Source: the human T2T-CHM13v2.0 reference genome, Homo sapiens
Length of the DNA stretch: 64,000 nucleotides
NCBI RefSeq assembly: GCF_009914755.1
Contig: NC_060933.1
Reading direction: 5' to 3' (one strand)
In this document: one piece after another, positions 21,621 to 58,782 of the stretch
Layout of the letters: every line of letters starts with the position of its first letter
Numbering within the stretch: the first letter of the stretch is position 1
Notes under the pieces: model-generated
What the model was told of the DNA's origin: nothing
What the model saw: the letters and a program-made list of their open reading frames with translations, nothing else
The model's database searches: none
Position numbers and translations under genes: made by a program

Positions 21621-22033
21621 TTCCCAAATAAAAACTATCAATTGGTGCATCCACTTGGAAGAAAATAAACAATATTTCTCAGTAGACGTTTGATACACAT
21701 TGTAACAAGATTGTGTTACTTGTACAATTGCTCAATTGTGTTTATTACCAACACTGTTAAGTCTCTGAACTGTGAAATGTTTTCTCTTATTTCAGACAAA
21801 TGTCCACAGGTTTTCTTAGTCTCATTGCTCCATTTTTCTATTACCTGTATATCAAAAGCAGTGTCTTAATTCATTTTTGTTCAGCTTATCACTTCAATTC
21901 TATGAGCTCGGCTGTTTTTTTATGTTAACTCTTTAAACAATGCTTTGTAAGGCTTCAAACAAGTTGGAAAAAACTGGCTATTACTTTTTAATTAATAAAG
22001 AAAATATAATTGCCCTTTTTGATTTAAACTACT

Positions 22034-23424
22034 TGTATAAGGATCCTCCAGAGGGACAGAACTAATAGGATACGTGTGTATATGAAAGACAGTTTATTAA
22101 GGAGAATTGGCTCACACTATTGAGGACTAAACTCTGATTTTTTTTAAATCTTGCACAAATTCCTATTTAAGGGGTCTGGGGAGTCATGTGCTACAAATCA
22201 TAAATTCTCATCAGAAGGGTTTTATTTAACCCTGTATATCATGACTTATTTTCCAACCTGATTCTAGCATAACATTATGAGACAAGGAAGAAAATCAAAA
22301 TATTTTACACCAAAACCTGTTTCGTAGCCATATTTTGAAATGACCCTGCACATCTGTTCTTTGTGGGGTATACTTTGCATCTGTAAAGAATCTCTATTAA
22401 CATACCTAGATCTTTTTCTTCCAGACCCTCCCAATCCTAAAGAGATTAACTAAGATCTGAATAGGAAACATTTGTCATTTATTGTCTCTAAGGGCAGCCA
22501 CTGTACGACTTCACAAGAACTTTGGACTCCACAATCTTTATCTTAACCTGAATATTCCCTTTCTATGAATCCCAGGTCTTTAGACAAATGCAACTAATTG
22601 TCAACCAGAAAATGTTTAAATTCACCTATAGCCTGGAAGCCCACCCACCCCACCCCCACCTCCCCACACCTCCCCGCACCCCCCTCCACCGCCGCCCTGC
22701 TTTGAGTTATACTGCCTTTCTGGACTAAACCAATGGTATTCCTTAAATGTATTTGATTGATGTCTCCTGCCTGTCTAAAATAGGTAAAACTAAGCTGTGC
22801 CCCGACCACCTTGGACATATGTTCTCAGGACCTCCTGAGGGTTGTGTCACCGGCCATGGTCACTCATATTTGGCTCACAATAAATCTCTTCAAATATGTT
22901 ACAGAGTTGGACTCTTTTCGTCCACACTATCACAAGGTGAAGTCCCATGATAGGCTGTCTGCAAACTGAGGAAGAGAGAAGGCAGTAATGTCTCAGTCTG
23001 AGTTCAAAAGCCTCAAAAGTGGGGAAGCTGACAGTGCACCCTGCAGTCTGTAGCTGAAGGCCCAAGAGCTCCCGGCAAAACCACTGGCATAAGTCCCAGA
23101 GTCCAAAGGCTGAAGAACCTGGAGTTTGATGTCCAAGGTCAAGAGGAACAGATGGAACCATCCAGCAAGGGAGAAAGATAAAAGCCAGAATACTCACCAA
23201 GCCAGCTTATTTCACCATCTTCCGCCTGCTTTGTTCTAGCCACACTGGCAGCCAACTGGATGGTGCCCATCCACATTGAGGGTGGGTCTTTCTCTCCTAG
23301 TGTGCTAACTCAAATGCTAATCTCCTCTGGCAACACCCTCACAGAGACCCAAAAACAATACTTTAATCAGCTACCTAGGCATCTTTCAATCCAATCAAGT
23401 TGACACCTAATAATAACCATCACA
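22034..23424 (-). mobile_element. MLT2 (A2/B-like) solo LTR split by a MER4 LTR
   Basis: MLT2 termini; 5-bp TSD ctact at 22029-22033 and 23425-23429. Confidence 0.9.
22121..22926 (+). mobile_element. MER4D/E-type ERV1 solo LTR
   Basis: tgaggactaaactctg...aataaatctcttc...ttttcgtccaca; 4-bp TSD ctat at 22117-22120 and 22927-22930. Confidence 0.85.
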
Positions 23425-23478
23425 CTACTCTACTCAAGTATCTTTTTTTTTCCAAGACATTATTTTCCTCCACCTCTC

Positions 23479-23730
23479 TGTTGTTGTTGTTGTTGTTTTG
23501 AGACAGGGCCTCCCTCTGTCTCTCAGGCTGGAGTGCACTGGCATGATCATAGCTCACCATGGCCTCAATTTCCTTGGCTCAAGTGACCCTCCTGCCTCAA
23601 CCTTCCCCAAATATCTGGGACTGCAAGTGCCTGCCACCATGCCTGCCCAGCTTATAGTAAAAAAAAAAAAAAAAGAAAGAAAGAAAGAAAGAAAAAAGTA
23701 AAGATGGGGTCTCACTATGTTACCAGGGCT
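23479..23730 (-). mobile_element. AluJ, truncated, with a (GTT)n tail and an A-rich linker
   Basis: gagacagggcctccctctg...gatcatagctcac...ggctcaagtga (J diagnostics). Confidence 0.85.
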
Positions 23731-24419
23731 CCTCTTCTTATAGATGGGGACAATGAAGCCTATAAATGTCAGATGACATAGCCTGATCAGACCAGGCAGA
23801 GCGGAGCCAGGAAGAGTGCCTGATACACCAACTTCGAATTCAGTGCTCCTGCCTCTGTCTTCTCCCAGGGCCAAGGCTTTTTCAGGCTAATGGACATGGG
23901 GTGGTCGACATGGGAGAAGGACAGAGAGAAGCCTGGGGAGGATGCTGAGAAGTAATAAAAGGGAGGAGAGAACCTTTGCAAGAAAACTGTCCCTAGCTTA
24001 GAGAAGTAAAAACAGAGTGGGTTGGGCAGGTGTTGGATGTGATGGAGTGGAGGTGAGACCAGAAACCCAGGAAGAAGGAACCACAGCTCTGGTCAAACCA
24101 GCACTGAGAGAATGAGACAGGAAGAGCGTGGTGTTGCCACCACAGCAGGGCTTTGTGAAGCCAGTGAATTTCCTGCTTCACAAGAGTTCAGCAGAGTTTT
24201 GTCTTCCTGGACAGAGAGAGGTGCAGTAGGAGGTCACAGAGGGTGAGGAAGGTCAGAAGGCAAGTCCCAGGTCTGCCCTGAGCTAGCGCAGGACTGGAGT
24301 GGGGAGGCATTTCCCCCTTGAGCCACAACCTTACCTTTTGTGCAATGGGGAGATGATAAGAACCCTGTCCTGCCCACAACATCCAGCTGGTGATCTGGTC
24401 TATAAATGAAGATCCTGTG

Positions 24420-24560
24420 CCAACCACCTAGAGGCAGTTACCATAGTTCCCATTTTACAGGTGAGGAAATTGGGCCTGGTAAGTTGTCACGCCTCAGATC
24501 ATGCAACTGGCAAGGCCCAGGTGAGTCAACCTCAGTTTTCAGTGACCATGTAGGCTGCCT
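24420..24560 (-). mobile_element. MIR
   Basis: cccattttacaggtgaggaaattggg. Confidence 0.7.
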
Positions 24561-24809
24561 CTCAATGTTGGTTCTTGGGAGGCTGCTTAATAGGGTCCCC
24601 TTCCAGGGAAGTAGCAATGCTGGGAGATAACCTCTGAGGCTTCATACAACTTTGAGAGCCCATGAATGTATTAAAATGAGGAGCAGGGAGACATGAAGGT
24701 TAAGTCCAAGTTCCTTGCCCAACCACCAAGACCCTTAGCACTTGGCCTCCCCAGCCTCCCCTCAACATGCTCCTGCTCTGGAGCTCTGGTGCCACACTTC
24801 AGGGCACTT

Positions 24810-24925
24810 CCAAGCTCTGTGACCTTGGGCAAGTGGGCCTCAGCTTCCTCTTCTGTACAATGAGAACAATAAAGTCCTCACTTTATAGGGCTACTGTGAG
24901 GATCAGAGAAAGTGCTTGGCAGATG
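24810..24925 (+). mobile_element. MIR
   Basis: tgtgaccttgggcaagt...cctcagcttcctcttctgtacaatgag...atagggctactgtgaggat. Confidence 0.8.
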
Positions 24926-25519
24926 GTGGCTGCTGTTGTCGCTAGGACTTCCAATTAATTACCGGGCTCAGGTTGCTGTCACTTGCCCTTACCTCCTCTG
25001 AGATGTCTTGCCCAGAGTCCCTATTTCTTGAAGCTGGGATCCTGGAGCCCTTGGGCTCACTCCCTCAGCCCTCAACACAGACTGTTGTTTTCTGCTTGTT
25101 TGTTTGCCTTCAAACACCCTGGGCACCAGTTGAACTCAGGAATGTCTAGCCCTGAGCCTAGCCGAGAGTGAGTGTTCTAGAAGCATGGCTAGATTCCGTC
25201 ATCCAGCAATGTTTGAGAATCCATGCTCTGCTAGGCCTTGCCCATCATGGTGATGTCCACGCTCAGAGTCCTGCTACCCTCAGGCTTGGACTTGAGTGAA
25301 GGAGATAGGGTGGCACACAGTGATAATGGCATGTGGTAAGTGCCACTGTGGGGGCTGTGGGGCCGAGAGGAGGACCAGACCCTACCATGCCCAGTGGAGG
25401 AGTGGTGGTCCCTTACTTCTGTAGTGCCTGCAGCATCCCAGCAGCTAGCAATGTGCCATTCTCCATTTGCCTGCCCCTTCCCATCATGATAAAAGATGGT
25501 TGCAACAGTAAATGAAACC

Positions 25520-25700
25520 CCTATTACCAGAAACTTGCAAGCCAGGCCCTGCTCTGGGAACTTTAGTGCATTTACTCTGCCCCTCAGAGGAGCCAATGTG
25601 GGAAAAGAGGTCTTGAGGGGCTGGTCATTGCTGGCACACTCAACCATCTTGTGGTTGTGTAGGATTTGAACTCGGGCCTGCTGGAACTCACCTTCAGCTC
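25520..25700 (-). mobile_element. MIR
   Basis: gccaggccctgctctgg...aggatttgaactcgggcctg. Confidence 0.55.
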
Positions 25701-26226
25701 ACTCTGCCCCATGCCATTGAGCTTCAAAACTCTCTGTCCACACCTCCTCCTGTGCAGCTGATTGTCCCAATGTGCTCAAGTATCTTAGTCTAAATCAAGA
25801 TATTCAATAGGAGGAAAATTCATATACTTCATTTCAAACACCTACTTTTGAAATGAGTAAAGTGTTACTGAGTTGAAAAAAACTGTAAAATGTTTACAAA
25901 ATATTTTGTAATACACTATATATGCACACATATTCATATTATATAGATATACAGATATATGTGTGTATACACAATGCAATGCAATGGAATATAATATAAT
26001 GGTAAGAGGTAATATATTTTTAAAATATTTTATTCTTACTCTCTTACTCAACATACTATTTTCTGCTCTGCATTATTATTCTTCTCTTGTAATTTTATAC
26101 ATTTTTCTTTTCTCTTTAGTTTACCTTTGCTACCCTCTCACATTTTTTTCTTTGCTTTATTATTTTTTGAATTTTCTGAACTTAAACGTTACCTCAACTT
26201 TAAATTTTCCAGTGTTTCAAGAAATA

Positions 26227-26560
<334 letters not shown>

Positions 26561-26593
26561 CTAACAGTGTAAGAAAATATTATTTTGGGGAAA

Positions 26594-26900
26594 GGCATTG
26601 TGGCTTACATCATGATCCACCAAGTGGCTCACAAAATACCAGCACTTTGGGAGTCCAAAGTGGGAGGATCACTTGAGGTCAGGACTTGAAGACCAGCCTG
26701 GGCTTAAAGTCCACCATGAGAGTCTCACATGGTGAGACTCTCTCTCTTAAAAAAAAATTATCTGGGCATGATGGCCTGTGCCTGTAGTCTCAGCTACTGA
26801 GGAGGGTAAAGTAGAAGGCTTACTTGAGCCCAGGAGTTTGAGGCTGCAATGAGCAATGGCGGAGGCACTGCACTCCAACCAGGGTGACAAAGACCCTGTC

Positions 26901-26916
<16 letters not shown>
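26594..26916 (+). mobile_element. AluJ with internal rearrangements
   Basis: Diverged dimer, cttgagcccaggagtttgaggctgca; A tail. Confidence 0.85.
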
Positions 26917-26931
<15 letters not shown>

Positions 26932-26976
26932 GTGTATATATACATACATATATATGTATGTGTGTGTGTATGTGTA

Positions 26977-27015
<39 letters not shown>
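26917..27015. repeat. (TA)n/(TG)n compound microsatellite
   Basis: Seen directly, grown from the Alu tail. Confidence 0.9.
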
Positions 27016-27021
<6 letters not shown>

Positions 27022-28994
27022 CCTGGCTATCATATCATGATCTGGTGGCATATATCATGGATAAATCATGGGTAGTAGACAAATGTACATATATATTTTA
27101 TTTACATGAAATGTATATGTATATACATATATATGTAATTTGAAGATGTGTGGGATTAAGACTAAGGATAAGAAAGAATAGGACCATCATATAATCATAC
27201 ATATAATTTCACTAGACAGAAAGAAGAGAAACAGGATAGCTGAGCAAACTGGTAGAATGGCCAACGAAACTGAGAGCACAAATATCCAGTATTATTTTAA
27301 AATCACTTACAGTGTTGTAATATAACCAGAAATTCATCTCCGAATCGCTTTTAAATAAATCATGCTATTTATGCAAAAGATGCATGTGTATTTTGAAAGA
27401 TTTTGTTGGCTTGTATTATAAATCAAGAAAATGGGTTGTTTCCCTTGTTATGTTTTCCCAGAGATAAAGGAATATTCTGAAAAACAGATCAGGGAAAAAA
27501 CATCTGCTAGAGGCAGATACAAGCCTGAAGAATTTGAAGAAATCTTCTGTAGAAAATAAATGGACCTTCTACTGGGGTTTTTCTCCATCTTACCTGAATA
27601 TTAGTATCAGGGAGACATAAACATTGGGTCTGTTTAATATTTCTTACATCTGTTTTAGATTTTTCCCAATATGATACATTCTAATATATGTATGTATCAT
27701 AATATGATAAACTTAATACTGTGACAGATCAAGGCAACTATTCTTTGTTTCTCCACAGGTATTAATTTGTGCTTTTCCAGGAAACATTCCGAATTTGAAG
27801 ACTTCAAACTGATCTTAAGGGGCTTGTTTAAGTGCAAATAAATCTGTGTATTGTGATGACATTAATCCTTTCATTACCATAAAATTCTATTTTAAAGTAT
27901 ATTATTTATTCCTCAATATTAAAGCCTTGTGAATTTATTTGTAACTTTTTTTTTAATTTTAAGTACACCTACCTTCTATTGCAAACTATGCACTTCAACC
28001 TCCGTATGATTTTCTAGTATAGTGAAAAATTACCACATTATCATAGATAGAAGAGCATGAAATTACTATGTCCAGGAGTACAAAATTACTAAACCTTATT
28101 TTAAAATATGATAAATCTAATAAAAACTTTGAAACCTAAAGTCATATACATTTTGAAGTAGCAGATATTATTTATTGAAAACAATAAAATGATAAAGCAT
28201 TTATTTTACTGACTACCTCATATGAAATAGAATAAGAGTCAGCATTCTGTTACAGAGTAAGAAAAAGTAGTTCTTTTACTGTATTGTGAAATAGAAAACA
28301 GTAAAACAAATATTTTGTTCTTGTTTCTCCTGGAAACTCTCTGAGTGGGAGGTTTGTGAATTAGAAGATGTTCAGCAGTCCTTAACCTAAACACCTTGAA
28401 TTGTACTTTTCTCATTCAGAAATATAATACTGAAATTGAATGAACATGAGCTCAAATAAAATGGAGTATTTTATATAAATGACCACCAGTAACAGTATAA
28501 CATGGTCATTTGTTAACATTGTAGATTTTATCTCAATTACAAAAATAGTCTTCCAAATTTGGACAAAGTGAAAGCCCCCTGTAAATACGTTTATGGTTGG
28601 AAAAATTAAAGAATCGGCATTCTGTAATAAATTCTTTATAAAATCTAGAGTTTAGATTTTTTTTAAAGGCTTGGCCTAGAATCCTTTGATATCTGAAAGC
28701 ACAATTTTAAATCAGAGACAGCACAACTCAATGGGTGAAGGCAGAATAGGAAGCTGCTTATTAAGAAAAAAAAAACACTTTATGTCATTAGTCCCTCCTT
28801 CTACCTAATATAAATGTATTTGATTTTGTGTAACTTTTATAATTAGTAGGAAAATACTTGGGAGGTTTTTGCAATTTTAGAGATAATAAAATATATGTGA
28901 AAACCTCACTCTGAGTGAGATTTAGCTGGAGACATAGTTTGCTCTCATAATGTGAGATTGTAAATTGATCCAAACTCCGAACCATTCAAGCAAA

Positions 28995-52632: not shown

Positions 52633-53540
52633 GGGGGGAGGAGCCAAGATGGCCGAATAGGAACAGCTCCGGTCTACAGCTCCCAGCATGAGCGACACAG
52701 AAGATGGGTGATTTCTGCATTTCCATCTGAGGTACCAGGTTCATCTCACTAGGGAGTGCCAGACAGTGGGTGCAGGTCAGTGGGTGCGCGCACCGTGCGC
52801 CAGCAGAAGCAGGGCGAGGCATTGCCTCACTCAGGAAGTGCAGGGGGTCAGGGAGTTCCCTTTCCTAGTCAAAGAAAGGAGTGACAGACAGCACTTGGAA
52901 AATCGGGTCACTCCCACCCAAATACTGCGCTTTTCTGACAGGCTTAAAAAATGGCGCACCAGGAGATTATATCCCGCACCTGGCTCAGAGGGTCCTAGGA
53001 CCACGGAGTCTCACTGATTGCTAGCACAGCAGTCTGAGATCAAACTGCAAGGCAGCAGCGAGGCTGGGGGAGGGGTGCCAGCCATTGCCCAGGCTTGCTT
53101 AGGTAAACAAAGCAGCCGGGAAGCTCGAACTGGGTGGAGTCCACAACAGCTCAAGGAGGCCTGCCTGCCTCTGTAGGCTCCACCTCTGGGGGCAGGGTAC
53201 AGACAAACAAAAAGACAGCAGTAACCTCTGCAGACTTAAATGTCCCTGTCTGACAGCTTTGAAGAGAGCAGTGGTTCTCCCAGCACACAGCTGGAGACCT
53301 GAGAACAGGCAGACTGCCTCCTCAAGTGGGTCCCTGACCCCTGACCCCCGAGCAGCCTAACTGGGAGGCACCCCCCAGCAGGGGCAGACTGACACCTCAC
53401 ACGGCCGGGTACTCCAACAGACCTGCAGCTGAGGGTCCTGTCTGTTAGAAGGAAAACTAACAAACAGAAAGAACATCCACACCAAAAACCCATCTGTACA
53501 TCACCATCATCAAAGACCAAAAGAAGATAAAACCACAAAG
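52633..53540 (+). promoter_or_regulatory. L1 5'UTR internal promoter (YY1 site caagatggcc; antisense promoter region)
   Basis: Intact 908-nt 5'UTR with partial CpG decay. Confidence 0.7.
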
Positions 53541-54558
53541 ATGGGGAAAAAACAGCGCAGAAAAACTGGAAACTCTAAAAAGTAGAGCGCCTCTCCTCCT
53601 CCAAAGGAACACAGTTCCTCACCAGCAGCGGAACAAAGCTGGACGGAGAATGACTTTGACGAGCTGAGAGAAGAAGGCTTTAGACGATCAAATTACTCCG
53701 AGCTACAGGAGGACATTCAAACCAAAGGCAAAGAAGTTGAAAACTTTGAAGAAAAATTAGAAGAATGTATAACTAGAATAACCAATACAGAGAAGTACTT
53801 AAAGGAGCTGATGCAACTGAAAACCAAGGCTCGAGAACTACGTGAAGAATGCAGAAGCCTCAGGAGCCGATGCGATCAACTCAAAGAAAGGGTATCAGCG
53901 ATGGAAGATGAAATGAATGAAATGAAGCGAGAAGGGAAGTTTAGAGAAAAAAGAACAAAAAGAAATGAGCAAAGCCTCCAAGAAATATGCGACCATGTGA
54001 AAAGAGCAAATCTACGTCTGATTGGTGTACCTGAAAGTGACAGGGAGAATGGAACCAAGTTGGAAAACACTCTGCAGGATATTGTCCAGGAGAACTTCCC
54101 CAGTCTAGCAAGGCAGGCCAACATTCAGATTCAGGAAATACAGAGAATGCCACAAAGATACTCCTCGAGAAGAGCAACTCCAAGACACATAATTGTCAGA
54201 TTCACCAAAGTTGAAATGAAGGAAAAAATGTTAAAGGCAGCCAGAGAGAAAGGTCGGGTTACCCTCAAAGGGAAGCCCATCAGACTAACAGCGGATCTCT
54301 CGGCAGAAACTCTACAAGCCAGAAGAGAGTGGGGGCCAATATTCAACATTCTTAAAGAAAAGAATTTTTCAACCGAGAATTTCATATCCAGCCAAACTAA
54401 GCTTCACAAGTGAAGGAGAAATAAAATACTTTACAGACAAGCAAATGCTGAGAGATTTTGTCACCACCAGGCCTGCCCTAAAAGAGCTCCTGAAGGAAGC
54501 GCTAAACATGGAAAGGAACAACCAGTACCAGCCCCTGCAAAATCATGCCAAAATGTAA
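53541..54558 (+). pseudogene. L1 ORF1p, disrupted
   Basis: ATG GGG AAA AAA at 53541; TAG at codon 15 (53583-53585); +1 frameshift near 54365. Confidence 0.92.
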
Positions 54559-54621
54559 AGACCATCGACATTAGGAAGAAACTGCATCAACTAACGAGCA
54601 ACATAACCAGCTAACATCATA

Positions 54622-58445
<3,824 letters not shown>

Positions 58446-58782
58446 ACAATGAGAACACATGGACACAGGAAGGGGAACATCACATTCTGGGGACTGTTGT
58501 GGGGTGGGGGGAGGGGGGGAGGGATAGCACTGGGAGATATACCTAATGCTAGATGACGAGTTAGTGGGTGCAGCACACCAGCATGGCACATGTATACATA
58601 TGTAACTAACCTGCACATTGTGCACATGTACCCTGAAACTTTAAGTATAATATAAAATAAATACATAAATAAATTAATTAATTAATTAAAGATAATCATC
58701 ATCTTTGCCACATACAAGGTCCAGTAAAATAATAATTAACCAAAATTAAGAATGTTATATTTATGGTTTCAAATTTGCCTTT

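What the first reader, a model, noticed from the sequence alone, without database searches (positions are those of the whole stretch)
23433..25786. 2.3-kb foreign non-coding block with L1-type insertion hallmarks (retrocopy or orphan transduction)
Seen in sequence: an exact 12-bp direct repeat ctcaagtatctt (23433-23444 and 25775-25786) brackets ~2330 bp. A T9 run sits at the left end, which is a poly(A) on the minus strand. The reconstructed empty site reads TCTT/AG. By eye the interior is about 50% GC with several MIRs and an AluJ, whereas the flanks are strongly AT-rich and L1-rich. Established: a TSD, a poly(A) and a TTTT/AA-like nick site are the signature of L1 target-primed reverse transcription. 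Inference: an unspliced, 3'UTR or lncRNA-like RNA from a GC-rich locus was copied here with no L1 sequence attached, potentially importing regulatory DNA. Repeat annotation would miss it. Only a weak AATAAT lies 7 nt from the tail, so priming may have been internal.
Basis: partly seen in the sequence, partly recalled or inferred. Interest (0 to 1): 0.8.

Follow-up and report, generated by a model that had tools for sequence, protein, structure and literature searches.

The report
Old retrocopy of a UBXN11 intron
A 2.3-kb GC-rich block in a chromosome 9 gene desert is an ancient, L1-style reverse-transcribed copy of part of an intron of the UBXN11 gene on chromosome 1; it is a well-supported but ordinary kind of genomic fossil.

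Summary
The 12-bp direct repeat ctcaagtatctt sits at 23433-23444 and 25775-25786, with a T9 run abutting the left copy.

A 12-mer repeat alone is chance-level: there are 194 such pairs in the window. The decisive evidence is a whole-genome search, which found exactly one long paralog, at chr1:26,125,358-26,127,586.
- It is colinear over the whole block, with about 79% identity and K2P 0.25.
- Homology stops at the two repeat copies; flank identity falls to 42-44%.
- The chr1 copy has no T-run and no flanking repeat.

The chr1 copy lies inside an ~8.1-kb intron of UBXN11, in the gene's sense orientation. An old Alu is shared by both copies at the same position.

So chr9 holds an L1-type (TPRT) retrocopy of unspliced intronic UBXN11 RNA. 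It was made about as long ago as the oldest Alus.

Orphan L1 transduction is disfavoured: no L1 lies within 8.4 kb upstream of the source. Nothing here shows function.

It is a new member of a known kind, of low to moderate interest. Orthologous empty sites could not be tested.

The parts
23433..23444 (+). Left copy of the 12-bp target-site duplication (ctcaagtatctt). Its 3' end (…TCTT) is the inferred primer end of the first-strand nick, TCTT/AG.
   Evidence: exact match to 25775-25786. (10 of 8739 random positions give a >=12-mer repeat at this spacing).
23445..23451 (-). Remnant poly(A) tail of the retrocopy. It reads A7 on the minus strand, or A9 if the two T of the TSD are counted. It has no counterpart in the chr1 source.
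   Evidence: chr1 has no T run at the corresponding place.
23452..23479 (-). The 3'-terminal 28 nt of the copied RNA, downstream of the Alu tail. It holds AATAAT 7 nt from the tail. The last ~15 nt align with chr1 just left of the Alu tail. The first 8 nt (CCAAGACA) match chr1:26125258-26125265 exactly, which would imply a 71-bp indel.
   Evidence: The choice between the two mappings is not significant: 207 of 2000 shuffles reach the observed score.
23480..23735 (-). Old, 5'-truncated Alu whose sense strand is the minus strand. It is present at the same position in the chr1 source, so it was copied as part of the RNA. It carries an (A)n(GAAA)n expansion at about 23660-23697 that chr1 lacks.
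   Evidence: Identity between the two copies is 67%. Polarisation against 12 other Alus gives 31 chr9-derived, 27 chr1-derived and 23 shared changes.
23736..25774 (-). Non-Alu body of the retrocopy. It is collinear with chr1:26125585-26127583, inside a UBXN11 intron.
   Evidence: the only long paralog in the genome; 77% over query 1-2035. (79.3% identity, K2P 0.25, even along six sub-blocks at 0.20-0.30).
25775..25786 (+). Right copy of the target-site duplication. Its first 3 nt (CTC, 25775-25777) also match the chr1 source. That is a 3-nt microhomology at the 5' junction, so the true duplication is 9-12 bp.
   Evidence: chr1 reads ...CCAATGTGCTC then diverges.

Best explanation
Window 23445-25774 is a roughly 2.3-kb retrocopy on the minus strand. 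I infer the following sequence of events.

1. An RNA was made from one intron of UBXN11 (chr1, minus strand), in the gene's sense orientation. It was either unspliced pre-mRNA that ended at a cryptic intronic poly(A) site, or a separate intronic transcript.
2. The RNA carried a sense-oriented old Alu 28 nt from its 3' end.
3. It was polyadenylated and captured in trans by L1 ORF2p.
4. The + strand of chr9 was nicked at TCTT/AG, and the T-rich 3' end primed reverse transcription on the poly(A) tail (target-primed reverse transcription).
5. The cDNA was 5'-truncated or ended at chr1:26127586, and joined the target through a 3-nt microhomology (CTC).
6. The staggered second nick left a 12-bp target-site duplication.

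The event dates from about the time of the oldest Alus, in early primates. The copy has since decayed neutrally and drifted towards AT.

Shown here: the repeat, the tail, the single collinear paralog, its exact boundaries, its intronic position and its orientation.

Inferred: the RNA intermediate, L1 as the enzyme, the nature of the RNA's 3' end, and the age.
For: 1. There is exactly one long paralog in the genome, at chr1:26125358-26127586. It is collinear on the same strand. With the non-Alu part as query, 4 of 4 candidates were scored and only this one is long.
2. Homology is about 79% inside the block and 42-44% in the 66 aligned flank positions on each side. It ends within 0-13 nt of the T run on the left and 3 nt into the right repeat copy.
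3. A 12-bp exact duplication brackets exactly this block. Only 10 of 8739 random placements show such a repeat.
4. An extra T7 lies between the left repeat copy and the start of homology, and chr1 has none. That is a poly(A) tail on the minus strand.
5. The chr1 copy has no such hallmarks. The longest repeat shared by its two edges is a 7-mer, which chance would give.
6. The chr1 copy lies in the intron between UBXN11 exons at 26131615-26131782 and 26123277-26123495. The tail strand equals the gene's sense strand. None of 120 UBXN11 proteins has a credible coding match in that intron; the single HSP has E 0.005 and is on the wrong strand.
7. The shared Alu shows the copy was made in primates, where L1 is the active autonomous LINE (established knowledge).
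8. Papers:
   - TSD, poly(A) and TT/AAAA are the L1 hallmarks, and microhomology occurs at 5' junctions (PMC2912911, passages).
   - Retroposed pieces of host-gene introns with an A-tail and a ~14-bp TSD are documented as type-2 snoRNA retroposons (PMC1687206, passages).
Against: - The copy has no splice junction, so no feature proves an RNA intermediate independently of the tail and the duplication.
- The tail is only 7-9 A.
- The nick site TCTT/AG departs from TTTT/AA at two of six positions.
- Neither copy has a canonical AATAAA or ATTAAA near the 3' end. chr9 has AATAAT. The 3' end maps ambiguously on chr1, at about 26125330 or at 26125258.
- A perfect 12/12 duplication is somewhat unexpected at this age. 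With 80.7% non-CpG identity between the copies, 0.807^12 is about 0.08. The Alu polarisation shows no slower rate in chr9 (31 against 27 derived changes).
- No outgroup genome was available, so the empty site was not seen.
Confidence: 0.85

Rival explanations
1. Orphan L1 3' transduction. A read-through transcript from an L1 upstream of the chr1 segment was retrotransposed and truncated so severely that only the flank was inserted.
For: It would leave the same hallmarks: duplication, tail and nick site. Orphan transductions are documented in tumours and in the germline (PMC7058536 and PMC4862182; search listing and abstracts only).
Against: No L1 was found in the 20 kb around the source, which includes 8.4 kb upstream in RNA sense.
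- blastn of the chr1 stretch against the whole window, which holds a 5.8-kb L1, found only Alus and the block.
- tblastn with four L1 ORF pieces from the window gave only E >= 1 noise. The same probes found old L1 fragments in the window at E 1e-5 to 4e-23.
- UBXN11 exons lie upstream, and the segment is in the gene's own sense, which gives a simpler source.
Confidence: 0.05
2. DNA-level event. A chr1 DNA fragment was captured at a chr9 double-strand break, or moved by duplicative transposition. The flanking repeat and T run would then be repair by-products or coincidence.
For: The copy is collinear with genomic DNA and has no splice junction. The tail is short.
Against: A 12-bp duplication, an untemplated T run on the inner side of one copy only, and a Y4/R2 nick site are the specific TPRT signature (PMC2912911, passages). 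A repeat at this spacing is rare by chance, 10 of 8739. At 77-79% identity and 2.3 kb, it is not a segmental duplication by the usual thresholds of >=1 kb and >=90% identity (recalled).
Confidence: 0.07
3. No insertion at all. The block is ancestral chr9 DNA between younger AT-rich insertions, and the 12-mer repeat is chance.
For: The window holds 194 direct 12-mer pairs at 300-6000 bp spacing. The left flank is a separate high-copy repeat.
Against: The paralog's homology ends at the two repeat copies. The right flank is unique sequence, not a younger insertion.
Confidence: 0.02

Closest known systems
5'-truncated mRNA retrocopies (processed pseudogenes) made in trans by L1
   Same: A target-site duplication, a 3' poly(A) tail next to one copy of it, a T-rich/purine nick site, microhomology at the 5' junction, and a single parent locus elsewhere (PMC2912911, passages).
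   Different: The template is not a spliced mRNA. The copy is collinear with one intron of UBXN11 and holds no exon. It therefore lacks the 'intronless' hallmark and would be missed by searches that use protein or coding sequence (PMC5470649, passages).
Type-2 snoRNA retroposons (snoRNA plus part of the downstream host-gene intron, A-tail, ~14-bp TSD)
   Same: A retroposed piece of a host-gene intron in sense orientation, with an A-rich tail and a TSD. This implies polyadenylation of an intronic RNA species (PMC1687206, passages).
   Different: No snoRNA or other Rfam family was found in the block. All eight matches in 22000-27500 at E <= 0.1 lie outside it. At 2.3 kb the copy is also much longer.
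Orphan L1 3' transduction
   Same: A unique, non-L1 sequence inserted with L1 hallmarks.
   Different: No L1 lies upstream of the source within 8.4 kb.
Alu-bearing 3' ends as facilitators of trans-mobilisation (Farre et al. 2016)
   Same: The copied RNA carries a sense-oriented Alu 28 nt from its 3' end. That paper reports that Alus embedded in 3'UTRs are over-represented in parent genes of processed pseudogenes (PMC5199112, abstract).
   Different: Here the Alu is in an intron, not an annotated 3'UTR. A facilitating role is inference only.

Membership tests
L1-mediated (TPRT) retrocopy | A target-site duplication of about 7-20 bp flanks the insert | tested here: met
   A 12-bp exact repeat at 23433-23444 and 25775-25786. 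It coincides with the ends of homology. At random placements the rate is 10 of 8739.
L1-mediated (TPRT) retrocopy | An untemplated poly(A) tail at the 3' end, next to one TSD copy | tested here: met
   T7 at 23445-23451 (T9 with the TSD overlap). The chr1 source has none. The tail is short.
L1-mediated (TPRT) retrocopy | A first-strand nick site like TTTT/AA | tested here: inconclusive
   The site reads TCTT/AG. It fits pyrimidine4/purine2 but matches only 4 of the 6 consensus positions.
L1-mediated (TPRT) retrocopy | A parent locus elsewhere whose homology ends at the TSDs and which lacks the hallmarks itself | tested here: met
   chr1:26125358-26127586 is the only long paralog. Flank identity is 42-44%. 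The chr1 edges share only a 7-mer.
L1-mediated (TPRT) retrocopy | An empty site with a single TSD copy in an outgroup | not testable with these tools
   No primate or other mammalian genome is held. The left-flank repeat ends 9 bp before the TSD and the right flank is unique, so a test against paralogous empty sites is not possible either.
Processed pseudogene (spliced mRNA retrocopy) | Introns are absent: exon-exon junctions of the parent are present | tested here: not met
   The copy is collinear with one intron of UBXN11 and holds no exon.
Orphan L1 3' transduction | The source segment lies downstream of an L1 in the same orientation | tested here: not met
   No L1 similarity in chr1:26116000-26135999 by blastn or by tblastn with L1 ORF pieces. 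The positive control worked. Only 8.4 kb upstream was examined.
Segmental duplication (DNA-mediated) | >=1 kb at >=90% identity, without a tail or TSD (thresholds recalled) | tested here: not met
   Identity is 77-79%, and a tail and TSD are present.

The most novel reading that the evidence does not exclude
The block is a fossil, tens of millions of years old, of an intronic-polyadenylation transcript of UBXN11. Its 3' end lay 28 nt beyond a sense-oriented Alu tail. The Alu may have both helped define that RNA end and helped L1 ORF2p capture the RNA. If so, 'intron-only' retrocopies are an uncatalogued class that records ancestral transcript ends and Alu-assisted trans-mobilisation.
Probability: 0.2. 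Interest if true: 0.45.

Novelty: new member of a known kind. Interest (0 to 1): 0.27.

Why it matters
It shows that a purely non-coding, intron-derived retrocopy can be recognised from raw sequence and then confirmed by its parent locus. Standard retrocopy catalogues start from coding sequence and tend to overlook such copies (PMC5470649, passages).

This single case changes no principle. L1 is known to mobilise other polyadenylated RNAs in trans.

Its modest value is threefold:
- It is a dated marker of an ancestral RNA 3' end inside UBXN11.
- It is an example of a GC-rich segment decaying in an AT-rich desert. GC is 0.519 in the copy against 0.575 in the source, and sites that are weak (A/T) in chr9 but strong (G/C) in chr1 outnumber the reverse by 236 to 122.
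- It is a test case for systematic searches for such copies.

No evidence here points to a regulatory role.

Tried and rejected
- **Paralogous empty-site test.** I searched the genome with the 400 bp on each side. The left flank is a high-copy repeat that ends at about 23424, 9 bp before the TSD (40 matches scored of 3989 candidates). The right flank is unique (5 of 5 candidates scored, only short hits). No other copy can therefore span the site.
- **Exact 3' end of the source RNA.**
  - The contiguous mapping gives 17 of 28 matches (hand count).
  - The alternative is an exact 8-mer anchor at chr1:26125258, the only occurrence in the 20-kb chr1 stretch and one of 3 in the window. It scores better (4.8 against <=0).
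  - The difference is not significant: 360 of 2000 shuffles and 207 of 2000 reach the observed score. The question is left open.
- **Rfam scan of 22000-27500.** All eight matches at E <= 0.1 lie outside the block, and all are below their gathering scores.
- **Pfam on intron and other ORFs of the chr1 stretch.** 0 families for 6 ORFs. Exon ORFs gave partial SEP and UBX matches below the curated cut-offs. The gene was then named by protein search.
- **Literature on UBXN11 retrocopies.** One search for UBXN11 with retrocopy, pseudogene or retrotransposition was run. None of the 10 listed papers holds the word UBXN11. This is weak evidence that the copy is not in print.

Full report
**Observation**

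The window reads ...ctacta|ctcaagtatctt|ttttttt|ccaagaca... at 23433-23451 and ...ccaatgtg|ctcaagtatctt|agtcta... at 25775-25792. A script confirmed that the two 12-mers are identical.

- The T run is 23443-23451. Seven of its nine T lie beyond the repeat.
- On the minus strand, AATAAT ends 7 nt before the tail.
- GC is 0.49-0.54 inside the block and 0.28 just to the right. It is 0.41-0.48 for more than 1 kb to the left, so only the right flank is strongly AT-rich.

**Is it more than chance?**

The repeat alone is not. The window holds 194 maximal direct repeats of 12 bases or more at 300-6000 bp spacing. At random positions with the same spacing, however, only 10 of 8739 have such a repeat within +-30 bp of both ends. 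What settles the matter is independent evidence that a discrete block ends at these two places.

**The parent locus**

A search of the window's own genome with 23452-25774 returned the window itself and one long match, at chr1:26125526-26127583. The rest were short Alu-like hits; 40 of 5641 candidates were scored.

I repeated the search with the non-Alu part, 23740-25774. All 4 of 4 candidates were scored:
- the window itself;
- chr1:26125580-26127583, at 77% over the whole query;
- two short hits of 35 and 75 bases.

The genome therefore holds exactly two copies.

A sensitive blastn extends the match to window 23487-25777 against chr1:26125358-26127586. A global alignment shows what happens at the edges.
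- On the right, homology runs through ...CCAATGTGCTC and stops. It therefore ends 3 nt into the right repeat copy.
- On the left, it runs through a shared Alu and at least ~15 nt beyond the Alu tail. It ends 0-13 nt from the T run.
- Inside, identity is 79.3% (K2P 0.25; 0.228 without CpG sites) and is even along six sub-blocks (0.20-0.30).
- In the 66 aligned flank positions on each side, identity is 42-44%.

**Which copy is derived?**

The chr9 copy has the duplication and the extra T run. chr1 has no T run there. The longest repeat shared by the chr1 edges is a 7-mer, about what chance gives for that search space. chr1 is therefore the source and chr9 the insertion.

**What the source is**

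Stop-to-stop frames on the chr1 minus strand look coding.
- Pfam gave partial SEP and UBX matches, below the curated cut-offs.
- A protein search with one exon frame returned UBX domain-containing protein 11. Human and ape entries are 100% identical over the exon part; 267 proteins had E <= 0.001 among 898 candidates.
- tblastn of a human UBXN11 protein places consecutive exons at 26131615-26131782 and 26123277-26123495, on the minus strand.

The source block (about 26125258/26125330 to 26127586) lies wholly inside this ~8.1-kb intron. None of the 120 UBXN11 proteins returned has a credible coding match in the intron. The single HSP has E 0.005 and is on the wrong strand.

The chr9-chr1 alignment is plus to plus, and the tail is on the chr9 minus strand. 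The copied strand is therefore the UBXN11 sense strand.

**Mechanism**

These features together are the signature of L1 target-primed reverse transcription (PMC2912911, passages):
- a 12-bp duplication;
- an untemplated A-tail next to one copy of it;
- a pyrimidine-rich/purine nick site (TCTT/AG);
- a 3-nt microhomology at the 5' junction.

The shared Alu places the event in primates, where L1 is the active autonomous LINE (established knowledge).

The template was an unspliced intronic RNA with a 3' end inside the intron. One paper argues that retrocopies come from the polyadenylated end of a transcript, not from an internal intron (PMC7692494, passage). On that view the source was a transcript ending at a cryptic intronic poly(A) site, or a separate intronic transcript. 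This step is inferred.

Neither copy now has AATAAA or ATTAAA near the end. The 3' end maps either contiguously at about chr1:26125330 or, through an exact 8-mer next to the tail, at 26125258 with a 71-bp indel. The second mapping scores better but is not significant.

Internal priming on the Alu tail is excluded, because 28 nt downstream of that tail were copied.

**Orphan transduction**

The chr1 20-kb stretch shows no L1.
- blastn against the whole window, which contains a 5.8-kb L1, found only Alus and the block.
- tblastn with four L1 ORF pieces gave only E >= 1 noise. The same probes detected old L1 fragments elsewhere in the window at E 1e-5 to 4e-23.

Only 8.4 kb upstream was examined, and UBXN11 exons lie in that stretch.

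**Age**

K2P is 0.25 between the copies. In the Alu, 31 changes are derived in chr9 and 27 in chr1, against 23 shared changes relative to the majority of 12 other Alus.

The two copies have therefore evolved at similar rates. Each has changed by about 14-16% in Alu sequence since the event. That is the level I recall for the oldest Alu subfamily. From recalled neutral rates I estimate very roughly 40-65 million years.

A perfect 12/12 duplication at that age has a probability of about 0.08 (0.807^12). This is a mild tension.

**Comparison with known kinds**

It works like a 5'-truncated mRNA retrocopy. It fails the 'intronless' criterion of a processed pseudogene, because its template was intronic.

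The nearest documented relatives are type-2 snoRNA retroposons, which carry part of a host-gene intron with an A-tail and a ~14-bp TSD (PMC1687206, passages). No Rfam family matches inside this block.

A sense-oriented Alu near the RNA's 3' end recalls the proposal that embedded Alus favour capture by the L1 machinery (PMC5199112, abstract). Here that is only a suggestion.

**Function and verdict**

The block overlaps none of the RefSeq functional elements listed for the window, and nothing found here indicates activity.

The finding is a new, unannotated member of a known kind.

The main gap is the missing outgroup test of the empty site. No primate or other mammalian genome was available to me.

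Noticed in passing
window 23045-23424: A high-copy interspersed repeat. 40 matches were scored of 3989 candidates, at 81-85% identity. It ends about 9 bp before the left TSD copy. It accounts for the raised GC of the left flank. Its family was not named, as no repeat library is on hand.
   Followed up: partly
window 23660-23697: An (A)n(GAAA)n microsatellite inside the linker of the copied Alu. The chr1 source has only a short A run there, so the tract expanded after the insertion or shrank in chr1.
   Followed up: no
window 52894-58694: A near full-length L1 with long stop-free frames on the + strand: 275, 332, 542 and 279 aa at 53586-58094. I used its frames only as probes.
   Followed up: partly
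window 26916-27022: Matches to the microRNA families mir-297, mir-3149 and mir-1277, all below their gathering scores (45, 36.7 and 28.7 bits against 90, 100 and 81). This stretch overlaps the interval 26817-27026 masked as repeat in NCBI's file, so the matches are probably repeat-driven.
   Followed up: no
window 22630-22700: A C-rich low-complexity tract made of ccccac-like units, in the left flank. It sits just upstream of a stretch containing aataaa (about 22880) that looks like the end of an LTR-type repeat. That reading is by eye only.
   Followed up: no
L011/L012 (chr1:26125266-26125337): About 71 bp in the UBXN11 intron, just 3' (in RNA sense) of the shared Alu tail, may have no counterpart in the chr9 copy. 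This would be an indel in one lineage, if the 8-mer anchor mapping is right.
   Followed up: partly
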